Origin: an uncultured Desulfatibacillum sp.
GTDB lineage: Bacteria > Desulfobacterota > Desulfobacteria > Desulfobacterales > SpSt-501
DNA length: 64,000 nt
Direction of reading: 5' to 3'
Assembly: GCA_964570965.1 (NCBI GenBank)
Contig: CAZNAX010000001.1
Location: forward strand, 105,469 to 169,468
The position numbers and the translations under genes are program-made. Position 1 is the stretch's first letter, and every line of letters begins with the position of its first letter. The notes beneath the pieces are model-generated. The model saw only the letters and a program-made list of their open reading frames with translations, searched no databases and had not been told where the DNA came from. This document shows, one piece after another, positions 15,572-46,455 of this stretch.

Positions 15572-15695
15572 GGACACGTCGAAGATCGTATGTCCTCACT
15601 GCAAGAGCGAGATGGCCACCAAGAAAGTGGTGAACGGTGTTTCCGTTCTCTTCTGCATGAAGTGCAGGACGCAGTTCAAGACAACTCCGATCTAG
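15546..15695 (+). CDS. small zinc-ribbon protein (49 aa, TTG start); only partly represented in the ORF track
   Basis: AAGGAGG (15533-15539) 6 nt before TTG 15546. Contains CPHC ... CMKC. Its stop overlaps the convergent ligase stop by 4 nt. Confidence 0.45.
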   Translation: MGKLYKENRDTSKIVCPHCKSEMATKKVVNGVSVLFCMKCRTQFKTTPI

Positions 15696-17032
15696 GAAAG
15701 TCTCGCATCGAATGCCTCGTTAGAGGACTTGTCAGGATGCCACTCAAGAAAGATCGGATGCTGGAGGGCGTTGGTATCATCTCCTTCGGCTATGAAGGTG
15801 CGAGACTCGTACTTGATCCTAGCAACTCCAGCAATGCCACGATTGTTGGCCGCTCTACGAAGGACGTACCTACGTTGATCTTCGGTGAACCCGGATCCAC
15901 AATTGCAGATGTAGTGCATTGCTCCTTCGGGTCCGAATTGGTAGAGAGCCACAACACCCGGAAGATCCTTCAACCTACCTTTTCCGTAGCGACCACCGGG
16001 CTTGCCGCCGCTCCAGGTCATATCGGGATCAAACACTACGATGAAGTCTCCTTCCAGGATTGGTTTCCATTTCCAAGCTTCAGGTCGATCTTCACGTCCT
16101 CGAAAGTTGACGACAGCATCCCCGAAGATGGCCTCAGCGTCGTAGATCACCAGACCCTCGAGGCTCTCATCGCGAACAGTGATCATCAGTTCATCGAGAG
16201 GATTGTCGGAGGATACTGTAGTGAGTGTTTCCATGACCTGAAGGTATTGGAACTTCCTGCTACCGATCTTCCTGTACATGAAGTCGATCCATTCTCCTAC
16301 TGGAAGCTCTGCCATGATCTGCTTTCCAGCCCAGTAAGGAATTCCAAGAACGATAGCTGTTGGTCTGCGGAATGGGTCGTCTTGGAGAAGAACAGCTCTC
16401 TCTGGAAGACTCCTATCGAGAGTCTGCATCAGTCTCCTGTTGTCCATTCCGTTCTCCACGACGACAAGCTCTGTGAGAAGAATGGTCTTGGGCGGAAACT
16501 TGGCATTCGCGATCTCACGAGCGAGGTATGGATAGTTTGCCGTGCAAAGATCCATTCTCCTCGTGAAGATATGAACGTGATCGTCGTCGATGAAGATGGG
16601 ATGCATCATCCCGTCTCTTTTGATCGTGAAGATAGCCCTATCAGAATCGATAACCTCTTGCAGGCGGGCCATCTCCTTGCTTCCTTCTTCCGGCTGGTGA
16701 CGACACTTCATGAATCGAAGATTCTTGGCGGGGTTGGAGAAGTTGATCTCGTCATCCCTAGTGGATCTCAGAACCTCTCCAGTATTGGGGTCGACTTCTT
16801 GGTAGCCGAGTCGTTCGATCTTGTCCCTGATGTGACGATCGGCAACGAGTATAGCCTGCGTCTTGGCGTCCTTGTACCCCTTCGTTCCAAACTTGCCGAC
16901 AGGTCCGGGTCGATCATGAGTCTGCTTCATCTTCCCTCCGGCGATGCCGGATTCCATGAAAACTACCTCACCGTCGACACCGATCCTCCATTCGAGCGGG
17001 TTGATCTTACCACTTTGCCTGAACACTCTCAC
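15692..17032 (-). CDS. lig: ATP-dependent DNA ligase with an N-terminal WGR-like domain
   Basis: Motif I KRDG (16609-16620), III LLTELVV, IV EGLVIYD, V WKWKP, OB CGSGFT, VI HPIFLEWHPDK. The N-terminus EWRIGVDGEVV ... KGYKD ... LGYQEV resembles WGR. AGGAGG lies 8 nt before GTG 17032; the track start at 17041 overlaps the SD. Confidence 0.85.
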   Translation of the reverse strand: MRVFRQSGKINPLEWRIGVDGEVVFMESGIAGGKMKQTHDRPGPVGKFGTKGYKDAKTQAILVADRHIRDKIERLGYQEVDPNTGEVLRSTRDDEINFSNPAKNLRFMKCRHQPEEGSKEMARLQEVIDSDRAIFTIKRDGMMHPIFIDDDHVHIFTRRMDLCTANYPYLAREIANAKFPPKTILLTELVVVENGMDNRRLMQTLDRSLPERAVLLQDDPFRRPTAIVLGIPYWAGKQIMAELPVGEWIDFMYRKIGSRKFQYLQVMETLTTVSSDNPLDELMITVRDESLEGLVIYDAEAIFGDAVVNFRGREDRPEAWKWKPILEGDFIVVFDPDMTWSGGKPGGRYGKGRLKDLPGVVALYQFGPEGAMHYICNCGSGFTEDQRRYVLRRAANNRGIAGVARIKYESRTFIAEGDDTNALQHPIFLEWHPDKSSNEAFDARLS

Positions 17033-17067
17033 TTCAATCACCTCCTAACATCCGCTAGACCGATGCT

Positions 17068-17076
17068 CTTATAACA
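17068..17076 (-). promoter_or_regulatory. extended -10-like TGtTATAAG (minus strand) upstream of the ligase gene; the palindromic TTATAA core also gives plus-strand TATAAC upstream of gene 17096
   Basis: Plus-strand cttataaca at 17068-17076. It lies 35 nt from GTG 17032 and 20 nt from ATG 17096. Confidence 0.35.
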
Positions 17077-20800: not shown

Positions 20801-21709
20801 GCCGAGTCCTCAAATCTACGAGATATGATAGCCGTATCTCAGCGAGTAAAAGAATCAGGTGCGGCTCTGGATAAGTCGCTGCGGAACAACAGAGCTATTG
20901 TAGAGGCTGCGGACAAAGTATCACCAGAGACAATGAAATCGCTACAAGCTATCGCGGCTGCTGAATCTTCTGGTAACTGGGAAGCTGCTAATGAGCTTCG
21001 TAGTAAGTTCTATTCTGACTACATTGGAAAGCCTGGATCCGAATACCTAGCTGCAGCTCTACGGGCAGATCCTACTGGTGGATCTGTCAATTTGGGTGTT
21101 GGTATGCAGCGAGCTCTTCGTATACAAGGTGAGCTTACCGGGAAAAGGGGTACTGAGCTGGGTATTAGGGAGATGCTTAGCTCTGTTGGTCTAGACGAGA
21201 AGGCGTTTGGTGGTAAGGAGTTTGAGGCACTAGGTCGTAATCAGAAGCAGCGTATGAAAAAGCTGACTGGTATGATCACCAGTAAAGAGGGGATAACATC
21301 AGAACAGTTGACGACCTATCTTGGTGGAACAGCGGGAGACAAAAGTGCGATTGATGCGATTGCCGGTATGGGTGCTGGTACATTCAAAGATAGAACATCA
21401 TCCTGGCTAGAAAGCGGAAAAGACGGCTGGGATGCTAAAGAAGCCGCAGCATTGGCAGTAAGCTCAGGTGCAGAGGAGGCCCAACAGGGATCAATGGGGG
21501 GTACGCAAACTAGAAGTAGCCTTGCTGAAAAGCAATACGATATTCTCAAGAAGATGTTCGACTTTCAAGTAGTTCAATCGACGAAGGACGCTGGACTGAT
21601 CAAGGAACAGACTGATAATCTCATAGCTGCCATGGGATTGCAGTCGAAGACTACGGCCCCTGCTGGTGAGGGAACCTCTGAACAAATTCCAGGAGATTAT
21701 GCGGGGTAG
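17894..21709 (+). CDS. giant virion-module protein (1271 aa) with a Gly/Met/Pro-rich N-terminus; tape-measure-like or internal/ejected protein
   Basis: First gene of the long plus-strand operon. About 190 aa of low complexity (PPMMPPPPPPMPG, GGMGMAALGG), then a long helical-looking region. No enzyme motif accepted. Confidence 0.75.
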   Translation: MMSSQQIAAMASQQQAMFGNFQSYAAQITPAYGAGPGMGALRPPVMGGYHTGSPPMMPPPPPPMPGLNMGYGGGMMQMATMMPYASPQMGMQQVMGEQLAGSFTGGLSTVGSGLARIGGYGALGAAGLSMLGMGGMGMAALGGLPGMAVVGGLEAGAYGLSQMHAGFQERQNVNRVLRQRFGGMMGIGGGRGGMGFNTQEMGQVSSMVRGMADQDMYTSFDELTRLMDRTAQMGLYRGVQGARQFQTRFKETVASLTEIAKTMHTSLEGATQFFEQARGQGFFSGRDITATLTQTRMAAGASGMSMDQMMSIRNQGTQMGRMMGMRGRTGAGAMMQMATNIGVGMQTGAISDELISEATGGLMGAEGAQAAAGMMMQSNARWLRRGAGRVMLAGLWDPATGGINRERLAQVMSGGMSFQDVRAMGRANISGTGGRRSEFFANEERLGGMLQEAGGGAIQFGMLEEHIRARRGVTSDDPIGERFIRRQTGWSQAEFELQRAAYRNLPRILEDRSMREAQQNETAMRTRSMEGRGVAGAQRRIQHWWQTEVTSPIRQMGDDLVTSFTTKVDEIFNQMEGNVKLTISERTQGLLTEYARTGELGKDLMSFKRYQELSRKLRTTSDEGGFWGGVGRSLGMRPGTIDERFNDIGGYLYSRAGKGLDIGAKLTQKQKEDFINKYYEESNMSASELGFTSDQIQKLSGRASQILTSKIGTGARLQEFREQLSRFPLMSGEEKDLFFQTRLDMYQSGDQDIKKFFAKLSGSRAKQYAGLAQLERGFGKGIEMPVDAMGGVKSYETLRTQLKSAADNEKSVMNRLAAKLLGGGYGTEWAYQTTTERKEGTGWWGTSFMGESKEITKKIAGKKLLDEIRMRENTGFMDQDSSLESKSSALRRYAVSITGLMSDEGTRDLLIRASRPGGDPAALKRLQELSRMDEKQAKDFGVSDVEALGKLTQRIANDDTKVKNDISSLAESSNLRDMIAVSQRVKESGAALDKSLRNNRAIVEAADKVSPETMKSLQAIAAAESSGNWEAANELRSKFYSDYIGKPGSEYLAAALRADPTGGSVNLGVGMQRALRIQGELTGKRGTELGIREMLSSVGLDEKAFGGKEFEALGRNQKQRMKKLTGMITSKEGITSEQLTTYLGGTAGDKSAIDAIAGMGAGTFKDRTSSWLESGKDGWDAKEAAALAVSSGAEEAQQGSMGGTQTRSSLAEKQYDILKKMFDFQVVQSTKDAGLIKEQTDNLIAAMGLQSKTTAPAGEGTSEQIPGDYAG

Positions 21710-22010: not shown

Positions 22011-23339
22011 ATGGCTGTGTTTATCGAGGCTAGGACCGAACCATTCGCTGCAAGGCGCGAAGAGATGGCTAGTGGTATCCGTGATCACGGAAGATCACAT
22101 CCATACGTGCGTAGACCAACGCGAGGGTATCAGCTCAAGGAAGATGTCTTTGCGGTGATCAGGATCATGGGACCGGATGGTCGGTTCATGCCAGTGATAG
22201 ACGCTGCTGGTGAGGAGTATTCTGTCGAGACCAATAGTGGCATGACAACGTCCTACTCGAACTTCTTCATTCAGTCTGTCTCTGAGCAGCGACAGGAGAA
22301 GCAGCAGATCGTAGAGACGTTTGGTGATTCCTGGATCTTCTTCTTTGGTGAGGCGCCACGTCTTCTCCAAGTAGGCGGTTACCTTCTGAACACGGCCGAC
22401 TTCAACTGGAGAGCAGAGTTCTGGGAGAACTATGAGCGGTACTTCAGAGGGACCAGACTTGTCGAGCTAGGGGCGCGTCTATACTTGATGTACGACGATA
22501 TCATAGTTGAGGGGTACTTGATCAATGCCGCTGCACAGGAGTCCGCAGCACCAGCACCGGCAGTGCTCCAGTTCAACTTTCAGATGTTTGTCACTGGTTA
22601 CACTAACGTTTCTAGGATAGGTGATCCTAACTTTCCTGCTCCAACAAACTTGGACTACGCGCAGCTTTCTAGTTACGATCAGGCTATTCAGAGTTGGCAG
22701 AGGAATAGGAACCTACAACGCAATATCGCCGGTGAGACCATCAACGCAGCTAACAGAAGAGCGTACCAGCTAGGAGTTGGCGCACTGCTGGCGGACTCCC
22801 TTCGTGCGAACATGGTTGATGCCGGTGATCCATCCATCTCAGCGTTTGTTGCCAGAGCTTACATGGCGACCAGAGCCGTGGCCACACTGGCTCAGCTAGC
22901 TAGCAGTCCAGATTCAGTGACCAATGCATCTGTAAATCCTTACGAGGGAGTGAGCATGCAGGGGCCGATGCGTCAGCAGTTCACGCACAACATTGATGAG
23001 TACGTCAGCTCAGGAGAGGAGTCACGCTACGCCAATAGGCATTTTGCATATGAGCTGTCTATGGCTGAACGTTGGCAAGAGATGGATAGTCAGATGGATG
23101 CCGGTCTAGATGGGATGACATCAGGCGGATCGGACGCCGGAGGATCAGAGTTCTGGGATGTGATGGGGCGTGCAGGTAGAACACAGCAGCAGATCATTGA
23201 GAGTGGTGGAGATAGACTCGTATCCCAGAACATCAACCGTGGTATGTTTATCGGCGCCGCTAGTCGCAGTGGTAACCAAGCGGCTCTAGCCAGATCAATA
23301 CCGTTCGGGATGATGGTCATGCCAGGGGAGATGCTGTAG
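22011..23339 (+). CDS. hypothetical virion-module protein
   Basis: 442 aa; abuts the next gene (TAGATG). Confidence 0.7.
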   Translation: MAVFIEARTEPFAARREEMASGIRDHGRSHPYVRRPTRGYQLKEDVFAVIRIMGPDGRFMPVIDAAGEEYSVETNSGMTTSYSNFFIQSVSEQRQEKQQIVETFGDSWIFFFGEAPRLLQVGGYLLNTADFNWRAEFWENYERYFRGTRLVELGARLYLMYDDIIVEGYLINAAAQESAAPAPAVLQFNFQMFVTGYTNVSRIGDPNFPAPTNLDYAQLSSYDQAIQSWQRNRNLQRNIAGETINAANRRAYQLGVGALLADSLRANMVDAGDPSISAFVARAYMATRAVATLAQLASSPDSVTNASVNPYEGVSMQGPMRQQFTHNIDEYVSSGEESRYANRHFAYELSMAERWQEMDSQMDAGLDGMTSGGSDAGGSEFWDVMGRAGRTQQQIIESGGDRLVSQNINRGMFIGAASRSGNQAALARSIPFGMMVMPGEML

Positions 23340-26300
23340 ATGCCAACAGCCCAACATCTGAGACTTCGGTGCTTCTTGGAAGGAATAGAGGTTCCAATTG
23401 TCTCCGCCTCACTCTCGATCCAACCGGATTCGCCGGCGCAATGTCAGATCCAAATTCCAGCTACTGATCGAGCCCATGATCTTCTGCCACGAACGCTTGT
23501 ACACGTTTTCTACTATGACTATCACGACGGTCCTGGGGATACGTTCAGCGTCCGAGTTGGCAACGAAGATCAGGTTCTAGCTGCTAGACGTCTAGCAGAG
23601 ATGTTGAACGAATCAGAGAATGCCGGCAGTGTTCAGTCCGACACCCAGACGGGTGATACTACTACGTCCGGATCGGTAGCAACTAGAACGACATTCGCGG
23701 AAGATCTACCTGGTCTCACAGGCGTTAGTCTTGACCCAGAAGGCGCACAGTTGCCATCTGAGGGTGCACCATCAACTGCAGTAGCAAGAGTTGAGTCGTC
23801 TCAGATAAGACAGAATGAAAGTGATGATCCACTACGTGATGAGCAGGTGAACGATCAGAACTGGAGACTGTTCTTCTGCGGAGAGGTAATCGGATACCAA
23901 TTTGTGAAGAACTACAACAATCGCGGGATCATCCTAGATTGTATGGACCTATCGCTCTATTGGGATACCTGCTACCAGTACAAGGTCAATGTAGCCTCGC
24001 TCACCGGCAATGCCATGGCCAACTTTGTTGGTGCAGGAACGTCGCTGTGGGATGTGTTCTTCCAGAGTGCAACAAGCTCTCTAGTGGATATCGTTACCCG
24101 TAGATCATATAGTAGACCCGATCTTACTGGACTGCTCTCCGGCATCGTTCACCTACTCGAACGAGTAGGTGGTGTCTACACTTCCCCAGGACGAAGCTTT
24201 CGTGGAGTGAACGACTTCTTCTCGATCGCAGAGCTGCGACTACACCTAGTTGATATGATCTGTGCATCAGAGAATGACAATTCCTCCAGACAGGTATTCG
24301 CACGCAGAGCGTACAATGCGTGGACACGTAGAGAGGGTGGGCAGCTGGGAGAGATTGCTAGCTTCAGGGAGATACTCAATCTGGTCAACAGGTACATCTT
24401 TCACAGCGTGATACCGTGTCCAATAGCGAAGTATGAGCCACCAGATCAAATAGCCACATCCAGATCAGTTCGCTACAACATCATGGACACTCCAGCCGGT
24501 AGAAGGGCTCTGGATCTTGCTAGGCAGATACAAGCTAGAGCTAATGCTCAAAGAGATTGTTGGGCTGAACACGTAGCTAGTGGACTTTCTCTTCCTAGTG
24601 ATCTAGTGCCAACAGCTCGTAGCGAATACGTAGGTATTGCGAGTGCATTAGAGCACAGTTTGATCCCATCACTCAATCAGCTAGGAGCTAGGAATGCGGC
24701 AGTAAAGGCCGTTGTGGCAAGACAAAAAGCCGATAGCATTTCAGCGTATATCAATTTTGCGGAAAGAGTGATCGATGTTACCGTACTAGCCGCAACATCT
24801 GAGGAAGCAGCTAGCGCTATGGATGAATGCGTAAGCGCAATGACCGGGCTACCTCCTCGATCTAGAAATGTTAGTAGCACAAGGAGAGTGTCTGCTAGGC
24901 TGAATTCGCAGATCATGCGCCCGGACATCTTCATGGTAGCCCCACCACGCTGTAACGTGATCTTTCCCGAGTTGTACAGCAGCATGCAGTTCTCTAGGCA
25001 GTTTCTCCGTGAGGTGACCAGGATGCGTCTCACGGTATCCGATGAGATCTTCGGCCCGGACATGTTGCTGGACAACTGGTACTACGCTCCAGATGTCGAG
25101 GTACTTGGTGAAAGAGTTCGTCAGGGAACTACAGATGCCGGAGGCGTAGCAGAGGGAGCTACTCTACAGCGTGCAGCGTACAGCTGCCGCCTAATGGATC
25201 ACGAGCTGTTCACTGGTGTCGTTCCTGTGTTCGAGCGAATGAACGAAGTGAACATGTACGCTGCTCGAGCTCAGATGGTGACAAGGCGTGGGGCAGTAGT
25301 GCCCTATGCAATGCGTGCAGCGCACTTCCAGTTCTTCAAGAACCGTATGGCACCTAGGTCCATGTCGGTAAGCGGGAAGTTCAATCCGTACATAGCTCCT
25401 GGATTCCCAGCTACTGTGATCGATAGGTACATGACCAAGGAGGGAATAGAGATGGCCAACCTACGTGGCATCGATCTCCTCGGTCAATCACTCACGCGAG
25501 GTTGGGCACGAGTTATCGAGGATCGAACAGAGTACGATCGTAATGTCGGCAATGCTGAGTTCTCTCCCATGGATGTGTGGAGCGCACTCAGGAACACGGT
25601 ACCAGTTCAGTTCACGGGACTCTTGATGTCAGTTCAGCACAACGTGTCGCAGGGCTCGGCAGGTACCTCCTATACTCTTTCCACAGCTAGAACGCACAGA
25701 GATCGGGATGAGCTGCTTGGTTCCAACGTTATGCAGGTTTCGCGTAGGCAGCCTGCGCAATCTACCAGGACCAGCTTCGTTGCCGCGTTGGAAGGAGACC
25801 CACCACAAGTAGGACAACTTGGCCCCTACTACGGTCTCATCACAAATGTGATGTCCGTGAGTCGTACTGGAAGCTTTCTTCTTTTCGGTACGTTCGGAGG
25901 TGGAAGGCCGCGAAGAGAAGTTGTCCGAGTTCCCGTTGGTGTTACTCAATCGGCTAGAAGTTACGGCCCAGAAGTCGTTGGTATGGTGGGCAGCCGCGAG
26001 GCAGAGGTCACGTTCCGCGCGTATCAGATCACTGAAGAAGTAGATCGTTGGCGAGGTCAGCGTGTAGAAGTTCCAATGGAGGACTTCCTTCGACCACCTT
26101 GGATGAGCGATGTTTGGGCCAGCGATAGGATTGGTGGAGTATACCAGCAGTTCTTCGGAACAGGTGCTATTACTGATCCAATGATCATTGATACGGGTAC
26201 CGCTCGAGCTACCTACACAGAAGATTACGACGAGACGCATAGTGAGGCTGGAGCACGGAACCAAACGGTGCAGGATCCTATCAGGGCTGATGGTACTACG

Positions 26301-26768
26301 AACCAGACTGCTGACCTCGACATCACCATTGAAAGAGCCATTGATCTATTGGTGAAGTCGTACAGCGAGATCAGGCAAGCCGGTCTAGACGTTCACGAAT
26401 TCATTAGGGCGTATACGTGGCGGCCGGTAGCGACCATCGATGACATGCTGGGAACTAGAGATCTGGAAATGGATCCTGCCACTGGTCGTGTGCTCCGTGG
26501 AGTAGAGGGGTTTCATAGTAGAGCGTTCGGTCGTGGAGAAACTGGAAGCAATCTGCGCAACCTGGTTCCAGAAAACATGGCAGGTACGAACGCTTCTGAA
26601 CAGGAAGAAGACCGATACCATATCGCTGCTCGTCTCTTGGGTATTGGTACTGGAGCTAACCAAGATCGTCGTAATCTGTTGACCAGGCTCGACAAGCGGT
26701 CTGATAAGAGTGAAGCGGTCCTGGCCTACGTTCAAGAGCTATGGGACAGTCGTGGACAGCTTGGTTGA
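23340..26768 (+). CDS. giant virion-module protein (1142 aa)
   Basis: Uninterrupted ORF in the operon; no motif recognised. Confidence 0.75.
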   Translation: MPTAQHLRLRCFLEGIEVPIVSASLSIQPDSPAQCQIQIPATDRAHDLLPRTLVHVFYYDYHDGPGDTFSVRVGNEDQVLAARRLAEMLNESENAGSVQSDTQTGDTTTSGSVATRTTFAEDLPGLTGVSLDPEGAQLPSEGAPSTAVARVESSQIRQNESDDPLRDEQVNDQNWRLFFCGEVIGYQFVKNYNNRGIILDCMDLSLYWDTCYQYKVNVASLTGNAMANFVGAGTSLWDVFFQSATSSLVDIVTRRSYSRPDLTGLLSGIVHLLERVGGVYTSPGRSFRGVNDFFSIAELRLHLVDMICASENDNSSRQVFARRAYNAWTRREGGQLGEIASFREILNLVNRYIFHSVIPCPIAKYEPPDQIATSRSVRYNIMDTPAGRRALDLARQIQARANAQRDCWAEHVASGLSLPSDLVPTARSEYVGIASALEHSLIPSLNQLGARNAAVKAVVARQKADSISAYINFAERVIDVTVLAATSEEAASAMDECVSAMTGLPPRSRNVSSTRRVSARLNSQIMRPDIFMVAPPRCNVIFPELYSSMQFSRQFLREVTRMRLTVSDEIFGPDMLLDNWYYAPDVEVLGERVRQGTTDAGGVAEGATLQRAAYSCRLMDHELFTGVVPVFERMNEVNMYAARAQMVTRRGAVVPYAMRAAHFQFFKNRMAPRSMSVSGKFNPYIAPGFPATVIDRYMTKEGIEMANLRGIDLLGQSLTRGWARVIEDRTEYDRNVGNAEFSPMDVWSALRNTVPVQFTGLLMSVQHNVSQGSAGTSYTLSTARTHRDRDELLGSNVMQVSRRQPAQSTRTSFVAALEGDPPQVGQLGPYYGLITNVMSVSRTGSFLLFGTFGGGRPRREVVRVPVGVTQSARSYGPEVVGMVGSREAEVTFRAYQITEEVDRWRGQRVEVPMEDFLRPPWMSDVWASDRIGGVYQQFFGTGAITDPMIIDTGTARATYTEDYDETHSEAGARNQTVQDPIRADGTTNQTADLDITIERAIDLLVKSYSEIRQAGLDVHEFIRAYTWRPVATIDDMLGTRDLEMDPATGRVLRGVEGFHSRAFGRGETGSNLRNLVPENMAGTNASEQEEDRYHIAARLLGIGTGANQDRRNLLTRLDKRSDKSEAVLAYVQELWDSRGQLG

Positions 26769-26796
26769 GCCGAGATGGGGCGGTATCATAGGTTCG

Positions 26797-29700
26797 ATGG
26801 ACGACTTGAAGAAACAGGCGGTTGGCTACAGAAGTGGCGGTTTCATGCAGGTGCGAAGAGGAACCAGACCACTTCACGTCGAAACCCTCCTACGTCGTAA
26901 GACTCCAGAGTCAGCGGCCAACATCTTCGAGCCGGCCAGGCCAACGACAACAGACAAGACCTTCGAGCAGTCTCTTGCGGCCACAGCTGGTGAGGAGTTC
27001 CAGCCAGCAGAGGCTGAAGAGAAGGTAGCTTCGATCAGTGAGCGTGAGTTCCTTGCGAAGGTCAAGAACGAGGCAGCCAAAGAAGGATTCGACATCTTTG
27101 CGGTAGCCGGTCGACCCGATCAGAATACAGGTGCATCCATATACAGTCGTAAGGGGCCAAAGGACACTTCTGCTGCGTGGAATGCGCGAAAGGCGCACAT
27201 GGAGTGGGAGAAGTCACAGGGAATGGATCCAGCACACGACTGGTCGAAAACTGCGGAGCTGCGCAGAGACAAGACCACAGAGAAGCCTACTCAAGTTGAT
27301 CCGAAGGTTGTCGAGTCGGTAAAGATCAAGCAACTCGGTACCGAGAATGGAAAGAAGGTCTTTCTGGTAAATGGTGCCGATATACGAAACAAGATCGATA
27401 CAGACTTCGCTCTTGGTGGTAACTCTGCGAGGTATAGCTACGTCCCAGAAGGTGAGCTGTGGGTAGAGCAGACAGGTTCAACAGTAGATAGTGACGAGAA
27501 GCATACGATCAAGCATGAGGATCGTGAAGAGAATCTCATGCGTAGAGGTATGAACTACAACCAGGCCCATGGAGAGGCTACAAAGGTTGAGACTGTTGAA
27601 CGCAGAAAGCAGGCTTCCGCAGGAGAGTTCGTAGGAAGACTGGCGCCGCTAGTAGATGATGCGGCGATCCTGGCATGGAGAGCCTATCAGAATAAGCAGG
27701 GAAAGAAGCAGGAGATCCAGGAACCAAAAGTCGGTGAGGTGAAGAAGTCTTCTCTGATCACTGATCTAGAGAAGGAAGCAGCTAAGGAAACAAAGCTGAA
27801 GACAGAGCTTCAACCTTATCAGCAACGGGTAATAGATCGACTAAGGAACCAATCTGGTCTAGTAGTGGCCCATGGACTTGGATCTGGAAAGACTCTCTCC
27901 TCCATCGCTGCTGCTACAGAGCTAGCTCCTGGAGAAGCTGCTGCACTAGTACCAGCAGCTCTGCAGGAAAACTATCTCAAGGAGATCGCAAAGCATACAG
28001 AAGGCGCTTCTCCGGTCAGTGTTGGCAGTCTTCAAAATGCGGTAGTGAAGAAGAACATACCGTCAGCCCCATTGCTGATCGTAGACGAAGCGCATAGGCT
28101 CAGGAATCCGGCAGCAGAAGGCTACCAGTTGATCAGAGACGCTAAGACTGGTAAGCGGATGCTTCTTACTGGATCGCCGGTGTACAACAAGCCAGAGGAT
28201 ATTGCTCCTCTCGTCAACCTAGCCGCCGGCGGTCGTGTTCTTCCTGTTGGATCAGATTTCAACCGTCGTTACGTTCGACAGCCGGGTAGGGGTCTTCTTA
28301 CTCTGATCAATCCTTTTGCGAGTGTTGATCCGAAGATAGTCAACAAGGGAGAGCTAGGTGGGGCACTTCACAAATGGGTTGACTACTACAATCCTGAGGG
28401 TGAAAGATCAGCGGACTATCCAAGCCTCAAAGAGGTAAGGATAGACGTTCCCATGTCAGAGTACCAGACGACGGTACATGATGCTGCTTGGGGTCAAGTT
28501 CCTCTGCTAACTCAATGGCGACTACGAAAGTCGCTTCCACCCAACAAGCAGGAGCTATCAGAGCTCAATAGATTCCAATCGCAGGCTCGGCAGATTGCAA
28601 GCTCTGAGAAGAAGTTTCGCACTGGAGATGATCCAGTTGCCATAGCCCCAAAGATCCAGGAAGCAGCAAGACGACTATCGGATCAGATTGAGACCAATCC
28701 AAGACATCGTGGTCTGGTTTATGCCAACTACCTCGAGACGCTCAATGACTACGCGAAAACGCTGGACGAGAAGGGAATTCCGTACGCGCAATTCCGTGGT
28801 GATATGTCCGCTAAGGTTAGAAACCAGGCAGTAAAGGATTACAACGAGGGTAAGATCAAGGCGCTACTTGTATCCGGTGCTGGTGGTGAGGGGCTTGATC
28901 TGAAAGGGACCAGACAAGTACAGGTACTAGAGCCGCATTGGAACGAAGAAAAGCTGAAGCAGGTAATCGGGAGAGCTAGGCGTCTTGGATCGCATGCACA
29001 TCTTCCACAAGAGGAGAGAAATGTTCTCGTAGAGAACTATTCGTCTTATCCTCAGAGATCATTTCTTGGGGCGATGTTCAAGGGGCGAAAAGGCGTAGAG
29101 GGGATGCTCTACGATATGTCAGCCCAGAAACAGCGATTGAATGATCAAGTAATAGACTTGATGAAGAGTGGACAGCATCGTGAGCGCATAGAAGTCTACG
29201 GCCTTCATAATGGAAAGCTTCTAGCCGGTAGGTTTCCAGATAGATCAGTTGGTGTATACGGAGGCGGTGTAGATCCTGGAGAGACTCACGAACAGGCAGC
29301 CCATCGAGAGTTCTTGGAGGAGTCGGGTTACAACATAGGTAACCTTCGCAGAGTAGATGTTCCCCCATTTGAGTCTCCGTGGGTGGAGGATCATGGTCCT
29401 ATCGAGCTTATGGCGCCCAAACGCCGAGAAGAATACGAATCTAGGCGCAAAAAGTTTCCTTCAGGTCACAAGACGACCTACTTCGCTGGTGAGGTGTCTG
29501 GAGAGCCATCGAAACCAGCAGATGATACGGGGTCACTCGGAAGAGTGAGGCCAATTGATCTGAATAGAGCTATCAAGATACAGCAAGCCGTCCTCTCAGG
29601 GATGACGAACCCTTACGACATTCGTCGTCTGGAAAGTAGGATCGCTGTTCTTGAGTCTCTAAAGGACCCACAGAAAACCGCAGCACGTCGTCCCGAATTC

Positions 29701-31392
29701 CCGAACGGGACAGTTCGGGAAAACGGGATGGCTAAAATTGCTGCTGAAGCAACCACCGGACGTAGAGAGTTCGCTCCCGGAATCCCGACCGGTAGAGTCG
29801 TGCAGAGGATACCTTCTGTGAAGGAGAGTGGTCCAAACGCGGAGTGGACTGCAAGTCTTGCCCTTCACCCAGCTGCAAAGCGTGGCGATCACTACGATCT
29901 ACGTCTAGTGGACTCCAAGGGCAAAGCGCATTCTTGGGCTATCAACAACATCCCTGAGCCGGGTAAGAGCACCTATGCTGCCCAAATGCCAACTCATTCT
30001 GGATCCTACGCCAAGCGTACAGAGCCGTTCACCATTCCGATCAATGTCTATGGTGGTACTAGACCTGGTGCACAGGTAGAGCCGAAGTACGTTCAGCCGG
30101 TGGAGGTGATCTCGGCTAACGACAATCGAGTCCATCTGCTTCGTCATGAAGGACAGAAGACGGAAGAGCTGGTACTTCGTAGAGTCGCAATGGCTGGTGA
30201 TCAAACACCGATCTGGGCACTCCACAACGCCACCAGAACTCGATCGACTCAAGAGGGGCAGCGACTTCCGGATATGAAGCCCAGGTATCAGGAGATCCCA
30301 ATCGGGTCAGTGGATTTCAACAACGACCAGCAGCTCATGACAGCGAAGATCGATGGAGCGCATACCATCGTAGATTTCTACAAGCCTGATCGAATGGCGA
30401 GAACATACTCGTATCGGCCTACTCAACGAGAGAGTGGTGTGATCGAGCATACCTTCAAGTTTCCCAACTTCCAGAACCTGAAGACGCCACCATCGTTGAA
30501 AGGTACTATGATCAGAGCTGAGACGTGGGCCTCCGACTCCGCTGGCAGAGCGATACCAGCGTCTGAGATTGGTGGTCTCCTCAACTCGAACGTGATCAAA
30601 TCAAGACAGGCTCAACAGGAAGGCAATATCACTCTCCGCAGAACTGGCATCGATGTGATCCGCTACAACGGCAAAGACATGTCCACCGCTCCATACGAGA
30701 GAAAGCTTGAGATCTTGAGAGAGGTCAACAAGGCTACCAAGGGCGCTATCGAGCTCCCAATCTCCGCTAGGACTCCGGAAGAGAAGGCCGAGCTGTTGAA
30801 TGCGGTGAAGGCTGGAAGGCTGCCAGAGACCAAGGAGGGGGTAGTCCTCCACGATCTTAGTAGCAGCACGATGATGAAGGCGAAGGTTAGGCCAGATACA
30901 GATGTCTACGTGCGAGAGATCGTCACGAAACCACTGACTGAGGCAAAGGGTCAGGCCGCTGGGTTCAAGTACTCTCTCGAACCAACTGGTCCTATCATCG
31001 GTCATGTCGGTACAGGGTTTTCCACACAGCTACGAAAAGAGATGTTGGAGAGCCCAGATCGTTTCGTTGGTCGAGTAGCCAAGGTCCAATCAGGAGGACA
31101 ACACGTAAGTCGTAGTGGACGGATAGGTGCTCTAGTCGGTTCTCCTGCGTTCAAAGAGTGGCACATCGACAAGACGCCGCCTGAGCTAATGAAGGAGGCA
31201 ACTTCCATTGGGGAGGTAATTAGTAGAGCGGAAAAGGAAGTTGATCCAGAAGCACTAGCTGAACGGTTGATGGAGACTAGTAGAACAGTCAAAGCACTCA
31301 AGCCGATTGTAGAGAGCAGTGTTGTACGTCCTTCACTGTTGAAGCTCAGAAATGAGTATCGAAACATCATAGGGGAAAAACCCGGTGATTGA
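26797..31392 (+). CDS. polyvalent multi-enzyme protein: unknown N-terminal region + SNF2-family helicase + Nudix hydrolase + LigD-type 3'-phosphoesterase-like domain + ATP-dependent ligase
   Basis: Single ORF (track 26710..31392). ATG 26797 is the first ATG after the upstream stop; TTG 26761 is an alternative. See the domain features below for motifs. Confidence 0.85.
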   Translation: MDDLKKQAVGYRSGGFMQVRRGTRPLHVETLLRRKTPESAANIFEPARPTTTDKTFEQSLAATAGEEFQPAEAEEKVASISEREFLAKVKNEAAKEGFDIFAVAGRPDQNTGASIYSRKGPKDTSAAWNARKAHMEWEKSQGMDPAHDWSKTAELRRDKTTEKPTQVDPKVVESVKIKQLGTENGKKVFLVNGADIRNKIDTDFALGGNSARYSYVPEGELWVEQTGSTVDSDEKHTIKHEDREENLMRRGMNYNQAHGEATKVETVERRKQASAGEFVGRLAPLVDDAAILAWRAYQNKQGKKQEIQEPKVGEVKKSSLITDLEKEAAKETKLKTELQPYQQRVIDRLRNQSGLVVAHGLGSGKTLSSIAAATELAPGEAAALVPAALQENYLKEIAKHTEGASPVSVGSLQNAVVKKNIPSAPLLIVDEAHRLRNPAAEGYQLIRDAKTGKRMLLTGSPVYNKPEDIAPLVNLAAGGRVLPVGSDFNRRYVRQPGRGLLTLINPFASVDPKIVNKGELGGALHKWVDYYNPEGERSADYPSLKEVRIDVPMSEYQTTVHDAAWGQVPLLTQWRLRKSLPPNKQELSELNRFQSQARQIASSEKKFRTGDDPVAIAPKIQEAARRLSDQIETNPRHRGLVYANYLETLNDYAKTLDEKGIPYAQFRGDMSAKVRNQAVKDYNEGKIKALLVSGAGGEGLDLKGTRQVQVLEPHWNEEKLKQVIGRARRLGSHAHLPQEERNVLVENYSSYPQRSFLGAMFKGRKGVEGMLYDMSAQKQRLNDQVIDLMKSGQHRERIEVYGLHNGKLLAGRFPDRSVGVYGGGVDPGETHEQAAHREFLEESGYNIGNLRRVDVPPFESPWVEDHGPIELMAPKRREEYESRRKKFPSGHKTTYFAGEVSGEPSKPADDTGSLGRVRPIDLNRAIKIQQAVLSGMTNPYDIRRLESRIAVLESLKDPQKTAARRPEFPNGTVRENGMAKIAAEATTGRREFAPGIPTGRVVQRIPSVKESGPNAEWTASLALHPAAKRGDHYDLRLVDSKGKAHSWAINNIPEPGKSTYAAQMPTHSGSYAKRTEPFTIPINVYGGTRPGAQVEPKYVQPVEVISANDNRVHLLRHEGQKTEELVLRRVAMAGDQTPIWALHNATRTRSTQEGQRLPDMKPRYQEIPIGSVDFNNDQQLMTAKIDGAHTIVDFYKPDRMARTYSYRPTQRESGVIEHTFKFPNFQNLKTPPSLKGTMIRAETWASDSAGRAIPASEIGGLLNSNVIKSRQAQQEGNITLRRTGIDVIRYNGKDMSTAPYERKLEILREVNKATKGAIELPISARTPEEKAELLNAVKAGRLPETKEGVVLHDLSSSTMMKAKVRPDTDVYVREIVTKPLTEAKGQAAGFKYSLEPTGPIIGHVGTGFSTQLRKEMLESPDRFVGRVAKVQSGGQHVSRSGRIGALVGSPAFKEWHIDKTPPELMKEATSIGEVISRAEKEVDPEALAERLMETSRTVKALKPIVESSVVRPSLLKLRNEYRNIIGEKPGD
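27808..29000 (+). other. SNF2/DEAD-like helicase domain of the polyvalent protein
   Basis: LQPYQQ, GLGSGKT (27874-27894), DEAH (28084-28095), LLTGSP, GGEGLDL and QVIGRARRLGS. Confidence 0.85.
29185..29560 (+). other. Nudix hydrolase domain of the polyvalent protein
   Basis: Exact Nudix box G-x5-E-x7-R-E-U-x-E-E-x-G-U, read as GGVDPGETHEQAAHREFLEESGY (29263-29331). Confidence 0.85.
29851..30225 (+). other. LigD 3'-phosphoesterase (PE)-like domain of the polyvalent protein
   Basis: LHPAAKRGDHYDLRLVDSKGKAHSWAI ... THSGSY ... YGGT ... VHLLRHEGQKTEELVLRRV parallels KHAA.RLHYDFRLE..G.LKSWAV ... DHP.DY ... YGAG ... G.KL.G.W.LVR of bacterial LigD PE domains. Confidence 0.65.
30285..31172 (+). other. 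ATP-dependent ligase (nucleotidyltransferase + OB) domain of the polyvalent protein
   Basis: Motif I KIDG (30346-30357), III MIRAETW, IIIa IDVIRYNG, IV EGVVLHD, V MKAKV, OB VGTGFS, VI FKEWHIDK. Confidence 0.85.
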
Positions 31393-32155
31393 TCAACAGA
31401 TAGATCCCGTTCTCGACTTCCTCGAGTTTGCAACCGAGCTGGACAAGGAAGCTGCTGAGGACAGAGCCGAGAAGGACTTTCAGCTCTGGCAGACGTGGAA
31501 GCAGAATGGTAAACAGGCTGATCATCTTGAGCCGCTCATGAAGCAGATCGATCCCCTGATCAGAAGAGCTTCCAACATTTACGCAGGGAAGGTCAACATA
31601 CCAAGATCAGCAGTACATGCAGAGTTTCAGATTCAGGCTATCAATGCGTTAGACAGCTTCAATCCGAATCGTGGAGCTTCTCTTGGTACGCATGTTACCT
31701 GGCATCTCAAGAAGGGCAGGCGATTCATAACCACGTATCAGAATATCGGCAGGATACCTGAGACAAGGATCTACAACATCACCACCTTCCAGAATGCTAG
31801 GGACGAGCTGAAAGATCAACTTGGAAGAGATCCCGCTGCTCATGAACTTTCTGATAAGCTGAAGTGGCCGGTGAACCAGGTATCTGCCATGGAGCTCGAG
31901 CTGCGTAAAGAAGTGCCAACCTCGACTCTTCAGTCAGATATGAGCTCTCTCAAGCCGTCGAAGGAGACTGAAATCATTCGATTGATCCAGTACGAGCTAA
32001 CTCCAGAAGAGAAGATCGTATACGAGCATCTACTTGGGGTGAACGGAAAGCCTCAGCTCAAGCCCGGTGAGATAGCTACAAGGCTCAACATGTCTCCGTC
32101 TAAAGTATCTAGGATCAAAGATAGTATTGGCGCCAAGGTAAAGAAGTACTACTGA
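31385..32155 (+). CDS. sigma-70-family RNA polymerase sigma factor (group 3/4-like)
   Basis: Region 2 (FQIQAINALDSFNPNRGASLGTHVTWHLKKGRRFI..IGRIPE), region 3 and a region 4 HTH (LKPGEIATRLNMSPSKVSRIKDSIGAKVKK). GTG 31385 overlaps the polyvalent gene stop by 8 nt. Confidence 0.8.
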   Translation: MIDQQIDPVLDFLEFATELDKEAAEDRAEKDFQLWQTWKQNGKQADHLEPLMKQIDPLIRRASNIYAGKVNIPRSAVHAEFQIQAINALDSFNPNRGASLGTHVTWHLKKGRRFITTYQNIGRIPETRIYNITTFQNARDELKDQLGRDPAAHELSDKLKWPVNQVSAMELELRKEVPTSTLQSDMSSLKPSKETEIIRLIQYELTPEEKIVYEHLLGVNGKPQLKPGEIATRLNMSPSKVSRIKDSIGAKVKKYY

Positions 32156-42979: not shown

Positions 42980-43369
42980 ATGGATATGGCAGAGGATTAT
43001 CTGAAGAGGCAGGCAGAGCAGGAAGCAGTCAAGAGCCTCTGCCGAAGCCTAATCGTTAGAGCCCTACGCGACTACGTAACCTACAAAAAAGCGAACAAGT
43101 CCGGTGAGCATAAGCTTTTCTCTGAAGCTAGCGAGTGGATCTTCAACGGATACCAGATCGATCCACTACCGCATACAGATCCAATAGTCATAAAAGGGTC
43201 TCTGTCTCAAGATGAAGCACGTAAAGAGCTTTTAGAGCTTGATAGGCTCATGAGCTTCGAGTCTGTTTGTGCTATCCTCGGGTGGGATGCCAATCTGGTA
43301 CGTAAACGAGTGAAGGTGCTAACTCAGGCTGACCTTGATCGAATTGGGCCGAGTCTGATGGACTTGTGA
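42980..43369 (+). CDS. hypothetical protein
   Basis: 129 aa. Confidence 0.6.
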   Translation: MDMAEDYLKRQAEQEAVKSLCRSLIVRALRDYVTYKKANKSGEHKLFSEASEWIFNGYQIDPLPHTDPIVIKGSLSQDEARKELLELDRLMSFESVCAILGWDANLVRKRVKVLTQADLDRIGPSLMDL

Positions 43370-46300: not shown

Positions 46301-46455
46301 CACGCTTCAGTGCTGTATACAAAAGAAGGGCCGGAGATTGGACTGAAGATGTTGATCCTTCAACCAACTTCACGGATACAGAAGAGGATCTTCCAGAGGA
46401 TGTTCTCGAGGAGTACTGGCCTGGTGTAGACGAGGAAGTGCAAAGTGAGCACTGA
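43366..46455 (+). CDS. giant virion protein (1029 aa); its position upstream of gp25-like/J-like genes is compatible with a baseplate hub/spike component
   Basis: Uninterrupted ORF; GTG start overlaps the upstream stop; no motif recognised. Confidence 0.7.
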   Translation: MIVSYSSDERDAAVSGLVQGTLSFPVDRLGVRDQPAPFEEVRELTNSAFLYDPDAVFYIINQAAKALGNTVQAEVTICTDLLNAVDDLAMPYKPINDVSSLSDAATSLSVMQGALERKGVIGPSEYGRYNAAIGRAAEDIGRTARMTYVPRGSTQVVKDVVRSSSEAKNEVLSLFQSLKSEHENLIERIGYILSSYDQFLSANIAGAVGQRQLSRACSEMRQLHSDLNVLTPSQRTATARRSLLQVLANRSVVRALRDRVLPGAARVSQESGAPAQYRLSPYGIGTPARVGGEISAPWAIQGSHSDRLRGNYNGTVVDVDLVDGTLSGISGVQQAIVYGFAEGNFAIHGDIATPYDLYSNVEPFNVPADPSGKGVFQVVVDGVFYECQLTAGAGRTAAQIRSDLTTPGNWLSPGVPPLSFPAAGAVVKIVYNNPTPPVSYSEREVEVVNGYLAVSTPPNSMWPWVVDDPSGPVTEDRSFGWNANNELWIHPNDYDDFITNPIVVTLPDGSFPDFLITPAQVKAAIDAAATVSSEEFEGIVNGSRIAVASTWQRVVNGTTVDGGEGSIITIRSAGIRDLSDPTGRSGYGTPSFLGIRTLGFSDGQYSRESDVSGQAVIKALNQSTSFAAQVRSSLIKQSYFESTEGIWSASGSLRKLQSSDPTTGWPVASKLKVAIKAGENRGIYGLVSYTWTNMGGSDYLVLILDRRMRSEEPTISQHFEVYSEFIQLESLVDTTASKIDLEDPVTIPPTTARKVLGLSQSPYYGSVNEMFIEWNDPETGWKPFNAHSRKIKVGDKVRSNGVEITTVSSVSDVESGLIRVDPEVSDPVSYSAFSIESADYLAYQEFIDSLETWWAAFPYKENLDSLDRLINTVLRSQPNNDRVSSVYNAVSDLRNELTGVDSVDELIQSFSVREVPAASSATRALADRGLDRARELLLQGRFEEFFGTTSRTASHGGAFLDAATTAVVQDLNENNAARARFSAVYKRRAGDWTEDVDPSTNFTDTEEDLPEDVLEEYWPGVDEEVQSEH

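What the first reader, a model, noticed from the sequence alone, without database searches (positions are those of the whole stretch)
29851..31172. An end-healing domain next to an end-sealing domain, analogous in logic to phage RNA/DNA repair against host nucleases
Seen: the PE-like domain is followed directly by the ligase domain in the same polypeptide, with a Nudix domain just upstream.

Established: LigD PE domains remove 3'-phosphates and resect 3'-ribonucleotides to give ligatable 3'-OH ends. ATP-dependent ligases seal 3'-OH/5'-PO4 nicks. Phage T4 uses a non-homologous heal-and-seal pair (Pnkp plus Rnl1) to reverse tRNA cleavage by a host anticodon nuclease.

Inference: this pair could repair breaks in phage DNA or host/phage RNA made by defence nucleases. 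I recognised no Ku-like or polymerase/primase partner in the window, so this is not a standard NHEJ LigD arrangement.
Basis: partly seen in the sequence, partly recalled or inferred. Interest (0 to 1): 0.7.

Follow-up and report, generated by a model that had tools for sequence, protein, structure and literature searches.

The report
Phage end-healing plus ligase repair module
A giant phage protein carries a LigD-type 3'-end-cleaning domain fused directly to a DNA ligase; this pair is the constant core of a large, undescribed family of uncultured-phage multi-enzyme proteins, and probably repairs the phage's own DNA.

Summary
Window 29764-31194 encodes a LigD-type 3'-phosphoesterase (PE) barrel followed directly by a complete ATP-dependent DNA ligase. 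It lies inside one reading frame of about 1531 aa (26797-31392), which also holds an intact SNF2 ATPase and a Nudix domain. A family profile matches solved PE structures (E 1.8e-20) and DNA ligases (E 4.5e-8). All six PE catalytic residues and ligase motifs I-VI are essentially invariant in 94 sequences. The AF2 model has pLDDT 91.9.

No Ku or LigD polymerase was detected, so this is not an NHEJ LigD. PE-ligase is the fixed core of a large uncultured-phage family (at least 150, up to 956, clusters at 50% identity). Accessory domains are shuffled around it: SNF2, Nudix, GNAT, InPase, DUF192 and a P-loop kinase-like domain. That pattern is typical of phage "polyvalent proteins".

The phage has a separate ordinary DNA ligase. 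The gene sits between homologs of Salmonella phage Arash virion proteins.

The heal-and-seal logic is supported. DNA is a more likely substrate than RNA. A counter-defence role and delivery in the virion are inferred, not shown. I found no match in 50,697 deposited phage genomes and no description in the papers searched.

The parts
26797..31392 (+). Whole multi-domain ('polyvalent') protein gene. The ORF opens at GTG 26710. The likely start is ATG 26797 (aa 30 of the ORF). The stop codon at 31390-31392 overlaps the start of the sigma-factor gene.
26797..27021 (+). Conserved N-terminal leader (ORF aa 30-104). It is shared by relatives with otherwise different architectures and is predicted to be disordered. 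Function unknown; a targeting or anchoring peptide is one possibility.
27247..27729 (+). Domain X (aa 180-340), a small alpha/beta domain with no Pfam, PDB-sequence or fold match.
27742..29199 (+). SNF2-family ATPase (aa 345-830). Walker A GLGSGKT is at 27874-27894, DEAH at 28081-28101, and motif VI QVIGRARRLG at 28960-28989.
29200..29664 (+). Nudix hydrolase domain (aa 831-985), with an intact Nudix box G-x5-E-x7-REFLEESGY at 29260-29331.
29764..29787 (+). Family-invariant N-peptide REFAPGIP at the start of the PE-ligase module. Role unknown. It may be the counterpart of the PaePE N-peptide needed for 3'-monoesterase activity.
29839..30228 (+). LigD-type 3'-phosphoesterase (PE) beta-barrel (aa 1044-1173). 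Catalytic residues are H1053 (29866), H1061 (29890), D1063 (29896), R1065 (29902), H1096 (29995) and Y1100 (30007).
30280..30897 (+). Ligase nucleotidyltransferase domain (aa 1191-1396). Motifs: I K1213-I-D-G (30346), III E1271, IIIa D1315, IV E1376-G1377, V K1390/K1392.
30898..31194 (+). Ligase OB domain (aa 1397-1495), with motif VI SPAFKEWHIDK at 31141-31173.
31195..31389 (+). C-terminal tail (aa 1496-1560). It is conserved in the closest relative (L009). Function unknown.
15692..17041 (-). Second, PE-less ATP-dependent DNA ligase (449 aa) of the same phage. It is a distant paralog of the ligase half and is probably the housekeeping ligase.
22011..26768 (+). Two upstream genes of 442 aa and 1142 aa. 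They are homologous to Salmonella phage Arash gp6 and gp8, both detected in Arash virions.
31385..32155 (+). Sigma-factor gene immediately downstream. It is homologous to Arash gp10, which was also detected in virions.

Best explanation
The segment is a functional two-step repair module for nucleic-acid ends. A Mn-dependent LigD-type 3'-phosphoesterase cleans blocked 3' ends. An adjoining two-domain ATP-dependent DNA ligase then seals the resulting 3'-OH/5'-phosphate nick.

The module is embedded in a phage polyvalent protein. I propose that the SNF2 ATPase of that protein moves along duplex phage DNA and brings the PE-ligase pair to nicks or breaks, which are then healed and sealed. The gene is co-transcribed with homologs of virion proteins. 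The protein may therefore be made late and travel with the DNA into the next cell, so that it acts early on the incoming genome.

Shown: the domain identities, the catalytic residues, the invariance of the PE-ligase pair, its repeated coupling to SNF2, the separate second ligase, and the synteny.

Inferred: that DNA is the substrate, that the lesions come from host nucleases, and that the protein is delivered in the virion.
For: - PE and ligase identity: profile against PDB, AF2 model and Foldseek.
- Catalytic residues: the six PE residues and ligase motifs I, III, IIIa, IV, V and VI are essentially invariant across 94 sequences. They correspond to the residues shown to be essential in PaePE and MbaPE (PMC3082917; PMC3300020).
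- The pair is never split. The top 150 of the representative clusters all span the full PE-ligase profile.
- Inteins sit exactly at the PE metal-binding motif, at the PE His84-equivalent and at ligase motif I. Inteins typically persist at indispensable active sites.
- SNF2 coupling occurs in independent arrangements. It is fused N-terminally in the window, L011, P0077 and P0086. It is fused C-terminally in P0073/L004 and P0115. It is an adjacent, overlapping gene in L006.
- The ligase has an OB domain and motif VI like DNA ligases. Its best structural matches are DNA ligases.
- The phage has another ligase for routine work.
- The partner domains are those of polyvalent proteins: InPase, GNAT, Nudix, SNF2 (PMC5512222).
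- The neighbouring genes are homologous to Arash gp6, gp8 and gp10, all found in virions by mass spectrometry.
- The genes from 22011 to 32155 abut or overlap, with no terminator-like site between them.
Against: - There is no biochemical evidence of any kind.
- No fusion to a portal or MuF domain, and no proteomic evidence, shows that this protein is packaged.
- The Arash virion proteome lists 116 proteins and may include contaminants. Homology to Arash is weak (E 7e-11 and 6e-7 in a small search).
- Most restriction nucleases leave ends that can be ligated directly, so the need for a 3'-healing step is unexplained.
- The PaePE residues specific for 3'-phosphate removal are not conserved (Ala1051, Pro1094).
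- 44 of 93 homologs are stand-alone genes with no SNF2 in the same protein.
- One relative has the gene between RNA polymerase subunit genes, not in this slot.
Confidence: 0.55

Rival explanations
1. RNA repair. The module heals and seals RNA, for example tRNA cut by host anticodon nucleases. This would be a non-homologous analogue of T4 Pnkp plus Rnl1.
For: PE enzymes act on 3'-terminal ribonucleotides and 3'-phosphates, and CkoPE prefers single strands (abstract of PMC3258152). Some family members carry a P-loop kinase-like domain, as a 5'-kinase would. Weak RNA_ligase Pfam hits appear alongside the DNA ligase hits.
Against: The ligase has an OB domain and motif VI, and it matches DNA ligases, not Rnl families. 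The recurrent partner is SNF2, a duplex-DNA translocase. The P-loop domains match only generic adenylate-kinase-like P-loops, not polynucleotide kinases. The window protein has no kinase domain, so 5'-OH ends could not be healed.
Confidence: 0.12
2. Genome-end joining or circularisation. The module works as a Ku-independent, or host-Ku-dependent, NHEJ-like ligase that joins the ends of the injected linear genome. This would be the mirror image of mycobacteriophages Corndog and Omega, which bring Ku and borrow the host LigD (own knowledge: Pitcher et al. 2006).
For: The PE-ligase pairing is otherwise typical of LigD, the NHEJ ligase (PMC3082917). The gene lies in a block whose Arash homologs are in virions. 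That placement fits an action at DNA entry.
Against: No Ku or polymerase domain was found anywhere in the window or in the family's partner domains. The ligase half scores better against Lig1-type and archaeal ligases (E 4.5e-8) than against M. tuberculosis LigD ligase (E 0.03-0.07). Nothing is known about the genome ends.
Confidence: 0.13
3. Housekeeping replication or recombination. The module trims ribonucleotide-terminated 3' ends and seals nicks during phage DNA replication, recombination or packaging. It has no link to host defence or to delivery in the virion.
For: The phage encodes RNase HII, RusA and a possible SSB, so it has its own DNA-maintenance genes. PE enzymes trim 3'-ribonucleotide tracts to a ligatable end (PMC3300020).
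Against: A separate ordinary ligase already exists. The gene lies among homologs of virion-protein genes rather than in the replication block. Its accessory domains change between close relatives, which is the pattern of conflict genes rather than core replication genes.
Confidence: 0.15
4. The domains are inactive relics that serve only a structural role.
For: The single-sequence Pfam scores are below threshold.
Against: Every catalytic residue of both domains is invariant across the family. Inteins target these same sites.
Confidence: 0.03

Closest known systems
Bacterial DNA ligase D (e.g. Pseudomonas aeruginosa LigD, domain order PE-LIG-POL) with Ku
   Same: Both have a PE 3'-phosphoesterase domain with the same six catalytic residues, directly N-terminal to an ATP-dependent NTase+OB ligase in one polypeptide. 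Both follow a heal-then-seal logic.
   Different: There is no POL (primase-polymerase) domain and no Ku partner. The first His-His spacing is 2 residues longer. The monoesterase-specific Gln40 and Glu82 are not conserved. The ligase half is no closer to LigD ligase than to other ligases. The module is phage-encoded and embedded among SNF2, Nudix and other domains.
Stand-alone archaeal PE proteins (Candidatus Korarchaeum CkoPE, 3p4h; Methanosarcina barkeri MbaPE, 3p43)
   Same: These are the best sequence-profile matches (E 1.8e-20 and 5e-15). They share the beta-barrel and the active site.
   Different: The archaeal proteins are single-domain and are not fused to a ligase.
Phage polyvalent proteins (Iyer et al. 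2017, PMC5512222; archetype P1 DarB, a methylase plus SNF2 helicase packaged in the head)
   Same: These are very large phage proteins that combine unrelated enzymes. They contain an SNF2 ATPase. Architectures are shuffled between relatives. The partner domains InPase, GNAT and Nudix are shared.
   Different: A PE-ligase module is not among the domains that paper describes ('LigD' has 0 mentions; ligase is mentioned only for RNA ligases). No MuF, portal or methylase domain is present here. Packaging is unproven.
Phage T4 Pnkp plus Rnl1 (RNA) or T4 Pnkp plus DNA ligase
   Same: It is a phage-encoded end-healing step followed by end-sealing, used against host nuclease damage.
   Different: The enzymes are non-homologous: a HAD phosphatase and P-loop kinase, and an Rnl-type ligase. 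They are separate proteins. The proven substrate is tRNA.
Mycobacteriophages Corndog and Omega: phage Ku using host LigD (own knowledge)
   Same: A phage makes use of part of the NHEJ toolkit.
   Different: Those phages supply Ku and borrow the ligase. This phage supplies a PE-ligase and has no Ku.

Membership tests
LigD 3'-phosphoesterase (PE) superfamily (Pfam PF13298) | Significant sequence or profile similarity to characterised PE domains | tested here: met
   The family profile matches 3p4h at 1.8e-20, 3p43 at 5e-15 and 3n9b at 1.2e-9. Many homologs pass the Pfam LigD_N cutoff. The window sequence alone is sub-threshold at E 0.0038.
LigD 3'-phosphoesterase (PE) superfamily (Pfam PF13298) | Six essential active-site residues (PaePE His42, His48, Asp50, Arg52, His84, Tyr88) | tested here: met
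   H1053, H1061, D1063, R1065, H1096 and Y1100 are invariant in all 94 aligned sequences apart from truncated ones. Residue roles are taken from PMC3082917 and PMC3300020.
LigD 3'-phosphoesterase (PE) superfamily (Pfam PF13298) | Eight-stranded beta-barrel fold | tested here: inconclusive
   The AF2 model is all-beta over aa 1044-1173 with pLDDT above 90. The listed Foldseek hits were dominated by the ligase half, so no direct PE superposition was obtained.
LigD 3'-phosphoesterase (PE) superfamily (Pfam PF13298) | Mn-dependent 3'-phosphodiesterase and 3'-phosphomonoesterase activity | not testable with these tools
   This needs an enzyme assay. The monoesterase-specific Gln40 and Glu82 equivalents are Ala1051 and Pro1094.
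ATP-dependent DNA ligase (NTase + OB, covalent nucleotidyltransferase superfamily) | Motifs I (KxDG), III, IIIa, IV, V and VI | tested here: met
   K1213-I-D-G, E1271, D1315, E1376-G1377, K1390/K1392 and F1481..D1487-K1488 are each conserved in at least 85 of 94 sequences (motif VI Asp1487: D in 70, E in 17).
ATP-dependent DNA ligase (NTase + OB, covalent nucleotidyltransferase superfamily) | NTase plus OB fold | tested here: met
   Foldseek matches T4 ligase, Lig1, archaeal ligases, LigD ligase and minimal ligases at E 1e-12 to 1e-9. BFVD viral DNA ligases match at up to 1.7e-16. The profile matches 2cfm at 4.5e-8.
ATP-dependent DNA ligase (NTase + OB, covalent nucleotidyltransferase superfamily) | Self-adenylylation and nick sealing | not testable with these tools
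   This needs an enzyme assay.
Bacterial NHEJ system (LigD + Ku) | POL (primase-polymerase) domain in LigD | tested here: not met
   There is no PrimPol or LigD-POL Pfam hit in the window protein, in any window ORF of 100 aa or more, or in about 30 family members scanned.
Bacterial NHEJ system (LigD + Ku) | Ku partner gene | tested here: not met
   No Ku or Mu Gam Pfam hit was found in the window sweep or in the precomputed Pfam of neighbours in L001-L008. Many ORFs have no Pfam hit at all, and only 64 kb of a genome of about 178 kb was seen.
Phage polyvalent proteins (Iyer et al. 2017) | Several unrelated enzymatic domains in one large phage polypeptide | tested here: met
   SNF2, Nudix, PE and ligase occur in one ORF.
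Phage polyvalent proteins (Iyer et al. 2017) | Variable, shuffled architectures among relatives, drawing on the known polyvalent domain pool | tested here: met
   L009 lacks SNF2 and Nudix, L001 lacks SNF2, and L004 has the order PE-LIG-SNF2. InPase, GNAT and Nudix fusions occur.
Phage polyvalent proteins (Iyer et al. 2017) | Packaged in the virion and delivered with the DNA (fusion or linkage to MuF or portal, or proteomic detection) | tested here: inconclusive
   No MuF or portal domain was found. The flanking genes are homologous to Arash gp6, gp8 and gp10, which were detected in virions.
T4-type RNA repair (Pnkp + Rnl1) | Rnl-type RNA ligase and a Pnkp kinase-phosphatase | tested here: not met
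   The ligase is a DNA-ligase-type NTase+OB enzyme. The window protein has no kinase or HAD phosphatase domain.

The most novel reading that the evidence does not exclude
PE-ligase polyvalent proteins are repair kits carried in the phage particle. On this reading they are packaged in the capsid and injected with the genome. SNF2 tracks along the entering DNA while PE-ligase heals and reseals nicks or breaks made by host defence nucleases before replication starts. Such an 'injected DNA repair' counter-defence has not been demonstrated for any phage.
Probability: 0.2. Interest if true: 0.85.

Novelty: new variant of a known kind. Interest (0 to 1): 0.62.

Why it matters
LigD-type end healing has been studied as part of bacterial and archaeal Ku-dependent end joining. 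Here the PE-ligase pair turns up without Ku or a polymerase. It forms the invariant core of hundreds of protein clusters from large uncultured phages, and it is wired to SNF2 translocases and other conflict-type domains.

If it repairs phage DNA damaged by host nucleases, that would be a new class of phage counter-defence: repairing the damage rather than blocking the nuclease. It would also suggest which chemical end types host defences generate.

The compact PE-ligase enzymes of about 470 aa could be useful reagents for ligating 'dirty' 3' ends. The finding can be tested directly with standard enzyme assays and phage-defence plating assays.

Tried and rejected
- **Single-sequence searches were not enough.** Pfam gave only sub-threshold hits and a PDB phmmer search gave nothing. 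A family profile was needed.
- **No cultured relative.** tblastn of three diverse family members against 50,697 deposited phage genomes found no match.
- **No match in species-representative bacterial and archaeal genomes** with two peptide patterns. Sensitivity was limited.
- **N-terminal 316 aa.** The large homology search returned nothing. That is odd, because P0001 and P0002 share this region. Pfam at E<=10 gave nothing. The AF2 model reached only pLDDT 63.8, and Foldseek found nothing below E 0.75. Its function remains unknown.
- **P-loop domains fused to some homologs are not shown to be polynucleotide kinases.** Only generic P-loop and adenylate-kinase-like matches were obtained. One passes the Pfam AAA_33 cutoff.
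- **Idea that 'E|F' marks prohead-protease cleavage sites at domain borders: dropped.** There are 9 E-F/E-Y dipeptides in the protein, against roughly 7 expected by my rough composition estimate. Several stand-alone homologs begin directly at M-x-EFAPGIP.
- **The promoter and terminator scan of 17-34 kb was not informative**.
- **The 'Serglycin' hits are artefacts** of the Gly-Ser linkers I used to concatenate ORFs.
- **The upstream 442-aa and 1142-aa proteins could not be assigned.** No PDB, Pfam or PHROG match identified them as terminase or portal. Only the Arash homology was found.
Full report
**What is there.** The finding lies in one uninterrupted reading frame, 26710..31392 on the + strand. 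Homologs start at the position of the first in-frame ATG, 26797. That start also removes the overlap with the upstream gene. Read from the ORF start, the protein contains:
- a conserved leader, aa 30-104
- an unassigned small domain, aa 180-340
- an SNF2-family ATPase, aa 345-830, with intact Walker A, DEAH and motif VI
- a Nudix domain, aa 831-985, with a perfect Nudix box
- a short tail.

**Checking the observation.** With the window sequence alone, the two domains are only hinted at. LigD_N scores E 0.0038, DNA_ligase_A_M scores E 0.094, and a single-sequence PDB search found nothing.

A search with the C-terminal 601 aa returned 93 homologs. Many carry precomputed LigD_N, DNA_ligase_A_M and DNA_ligase_OB_2 hits. 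I built a profile from 29 of them (A1). It matches the solved PE structures 3p4h (E 1.8e-20), 3p43 (5e-15) and the P. aeruginosa LigD PE 3n9b (1.2e-9). Further along, it matches ATP-dependent DNA ligases at 4.5e-8.

An AlphaFold2 model of aa 1030-1500 is confident, with pLDDT 91.9 and pTM 0.80. It shows an all-beta domain followed by an alpha/beta domain and a small beta domain. Foldseek places it on T4 ligase, human ligase 1, archaeal ligases, LigD ligase and minimal ligases at E 1e-12 to 1e-9.

**Catalytic competence.** The alignments to PaePE and the archaeal PEs place the six residues shown by mutagenesis to be essential (PMC3082917; PMC3300020). These are PaePE His42, His48, Asp50, Arg52, His84 and Tyr88, or MbaPE His36, His42, Asp44, Arg46, His78 and Tyr82. 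In the window protein they are H1053, H1061, D1063, R1065, H1096 and Y1100.

I aligned the window protein and all 93 homologs to the profile. These six positions are invariant except in truncated sequences. Ligase motifs I (K1213), III, IIIa, IV, V and VI are also nearly invariant.

Two caveats apply:
- The spacing between the first two histidines is two residues longer than in known PEs.
- Gln40 and Glu82, which in PaePE matter specifically for 3'-phosphate removal, are Ala1051 and Pro1094 here.

An invariant N-peptide, EFAPGIP, precedes the barrel. In PaePE a disordered N-peptide is needed for the monoesterase reaction. Whether EFAPGIP plays the same part is unknown. 3'-phosphodiesterase chemistry is therefore the safest prediction, and 3'-phosphatase activity is open.

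**The family.** An exhaustive profile search of 1.84 billion representative proteins gave 956 clusters at E<=1e-30. The best 150 all score below E 1e-140 and all span the whole PE-ligase profile. Their lengths run from 440 to 1682 aa. The figure of 956 may include some bacterial LigDs, so the family holds at least 150 and up to 956 clusters at 50% identity.

Among the first 93 homologs, 44 are essentially stand-alone, 23 have N-terminal extensions, 23 have C-terminal extensions and 3 have both. The extensions carry SNF2, Nudix, GNAT, InPase, DUF192 and P-loop kinase-like domains, in either order.

Close relatives occupying the same genomic slot differ in their accessory domains:
- L009, 83% identical in the module, has leader-domainX-PE-ligase-tail and lacks SNF2 and Nudix.
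- L001 has leader-Nudix-PE-ligase.
- L011 has leader-SNF2-unknown-PE-ligase.
- L004 has PE-ligase-SNF2.
- L006 has an SNF2 gene overlapping the start of a stand-alone PE-ligase gene.

PE-ligase is therefore the constant core and everything else is exchangeable.

This is the architecture pattern described for phage "polyvalent proteins". The published domain pool for those proteins includes SNF2, InPase, GNAT and Nudix, but not a LigD-type PE or a DNA ligase (PMC5512222).

Inteins with LAGLIDADG endonucleases interrupt family members at three places: inside the PE metal-binding motif, just after the His84-equivalent, and just after ligase motif I. This fits both active sites being indispensable.

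**Genomic setting.** The window is part of a large tailed phage. It has a baseplate J protein, DUF2793 fibre-like proteins, an amidase, RNase HII, RusA and GroES, and no tRNAs. Related IMG/VR genomes are about 178 kb.

The phage also encodes a second, PE-less ATP-dependent DNA ligase at 15692..17041 on the minus strand. This ligase is conserved in relatives. It is a distant paralog of the ligase half (hhalign probability 87%, E 4e-6). The PE-ligase is therefore unlikely to be the routine replication ligase.

The gene is tightly packed between a 442-aa gene and a 1142-aa gene upstream and a sigma-factor gene downstream. The three are homologous to gp6 (E 7e-11), gp8 (E 6e-7) and gp10 (E 3e-27) of Salmonella phage Arash, in the same order. 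All three Arash proteins were detected in purified virions by mass spectrometry (PMC10585845).

This suggests, but does not show, that the polyvalent protein is made with and perhaps packaged with virion components. Points against the idea:
- The Arash virion list is long (116 proteins).
- The homology to Arash is weak.
- No MuF or portal fusion was found.
- In one distant relative the gene sits between RNA polymerase subunit genes instead.

**How it most likely works.** I commit to a DNA-directed heal-and-seal module. PE converts blocked 3' ends into 3'-OH, and the adjoining ligase seals the nick. Blocked ends here means terminal ribonucleotides and possibly 3'-phosphates. The recurrently coupled SNF2 translocase brings the pair along duplex phage DNA.

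DNA is favoured over RNA for three reasons:
- The ligase is of the DNA-ligase type, with an OB domain and motif VI.
- SNF2 enzymes track duplex DNA.
- The window protein has no kinase to heal 5'-OH ends.

The counter-defence purpose and virion delivery are inferences from the polyvalent-protein pattern and from synteny. The rival explanations are RNA repair, Ku-independent end joining or circularisation, housekeeping repair, and inactive relics. They are listed with their tests.

**Comparison with known systems.** The module works like the PE-LIG part of bacterial LigD, but it fails the membership test for an NHEJ LigD system. No POL domain and no Ku were detected in the window or among family partners. 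The ligase half is no closer to LigD ligase than to other ligases.

It qualifies as a member of the PE superfamily and of the ATP-dependent DNA ligases. It fits the polyvalent-protein class in architecture, with packaging untested. It is only an analogue of T4 Pnkp/Rnl1.

**Novelty.** Three diverse family members found nothing in 50,697 deposited phage genomes. The BFVD library of viral structures yields only plain DNA ligases covering the ligase half. Literature searches found no description of a phage PE-ligase. These searches cover open-access papers only.

I rate it a new variant of a known kind. The enzymes themselves are known. What is new is the Ku-less and polymerase-less phage context, the family's size, and the coupling to SNF2 and other conflict-type domains.

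Noticed in passing
window 15692-17041 (-): A second ATP-dependent DNA ligase (449 aa, motif I KRDG, no PE domain). It is a distant paralog of the ligase half of the finding. The 494-aa + strand ORF 15590-17074 lying over it is probably spurious, and GC skew flips sign in this region.
   Followed up: partly
homologs P0093, P0128, P0211, P0065, P0155, P0219 (not in the window): Inteins with LAGLIDADG homing endonucleases interrupt PE-ligase genes at three catalytic spots. These are the PE motif G|xHxDxR, just after the PE His84-equivalent, and just after ligase motif I KxDGAH|T.
   Followed up: yes
window 29764-29787: The invariant peptide EFAPGIP precedes the PE barrel in essentially every family member. 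In many stand-alone forms an amphipathic stretch of about 15 aa precedes it. Its function is unexplained.
   Followed up: partly
window 26797-27021: A conserved N-terminal leader, predicted to be disordered, is shared by proteins of different architecture in the same genomic slot. It may be a targeting or anchoring peptide. The large homology search with this region unexpectedly returned nothing.
   Followed up: partly
window 31385-32155: A sigma-factor gene overlaps the stop codon of the polyvalent gene. It is homologous to Arash gp10, which was found in virions together with the RNA polymerase beta and beta' subunits. This suggests a phage that may carry its own transcription machinery.
   Followed up: partly
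window 6186-6770; 12227-12535; 3521-3877; 63153-63719 (-): RNase HII (E 1.6e-29), a GroES/Cpn10-like protein (E 9.5e-17), a weak SSB hit and a RusA resolvase. Together they point to a phage-encoded DNA-maintenance and chaperone set.
   Followed up: no
L007 3486-9449 and 14326-16113: In a distant relative the stand-alone PE-ligase gene lies between multisubunit RNA polymerase genes. One of them is a beta/beta' fusion of 1987 aa that carries a LAGLIDADG insertion.
   Followed up: no
L004 993-2027 (-): A NADAR-domain gene lies near the PE-ligase-SNF2 gene of an NCBI metagenome-assembled contig. NADAR enzymes reverse DNA ADP-ribosylation, which may hint at conflict centred on DNA modification.
   Followed up: no
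window 17894-21709, 23340-26768, 43366-46455, 57251-59929: Several very large ORFs (892-1271 aa) have no Pfam or PHROG match. Only the 1142-aa protein has a detectable relative, Arash gp8, a virion 'cell wall hydrolase'.
   Followed up: partly
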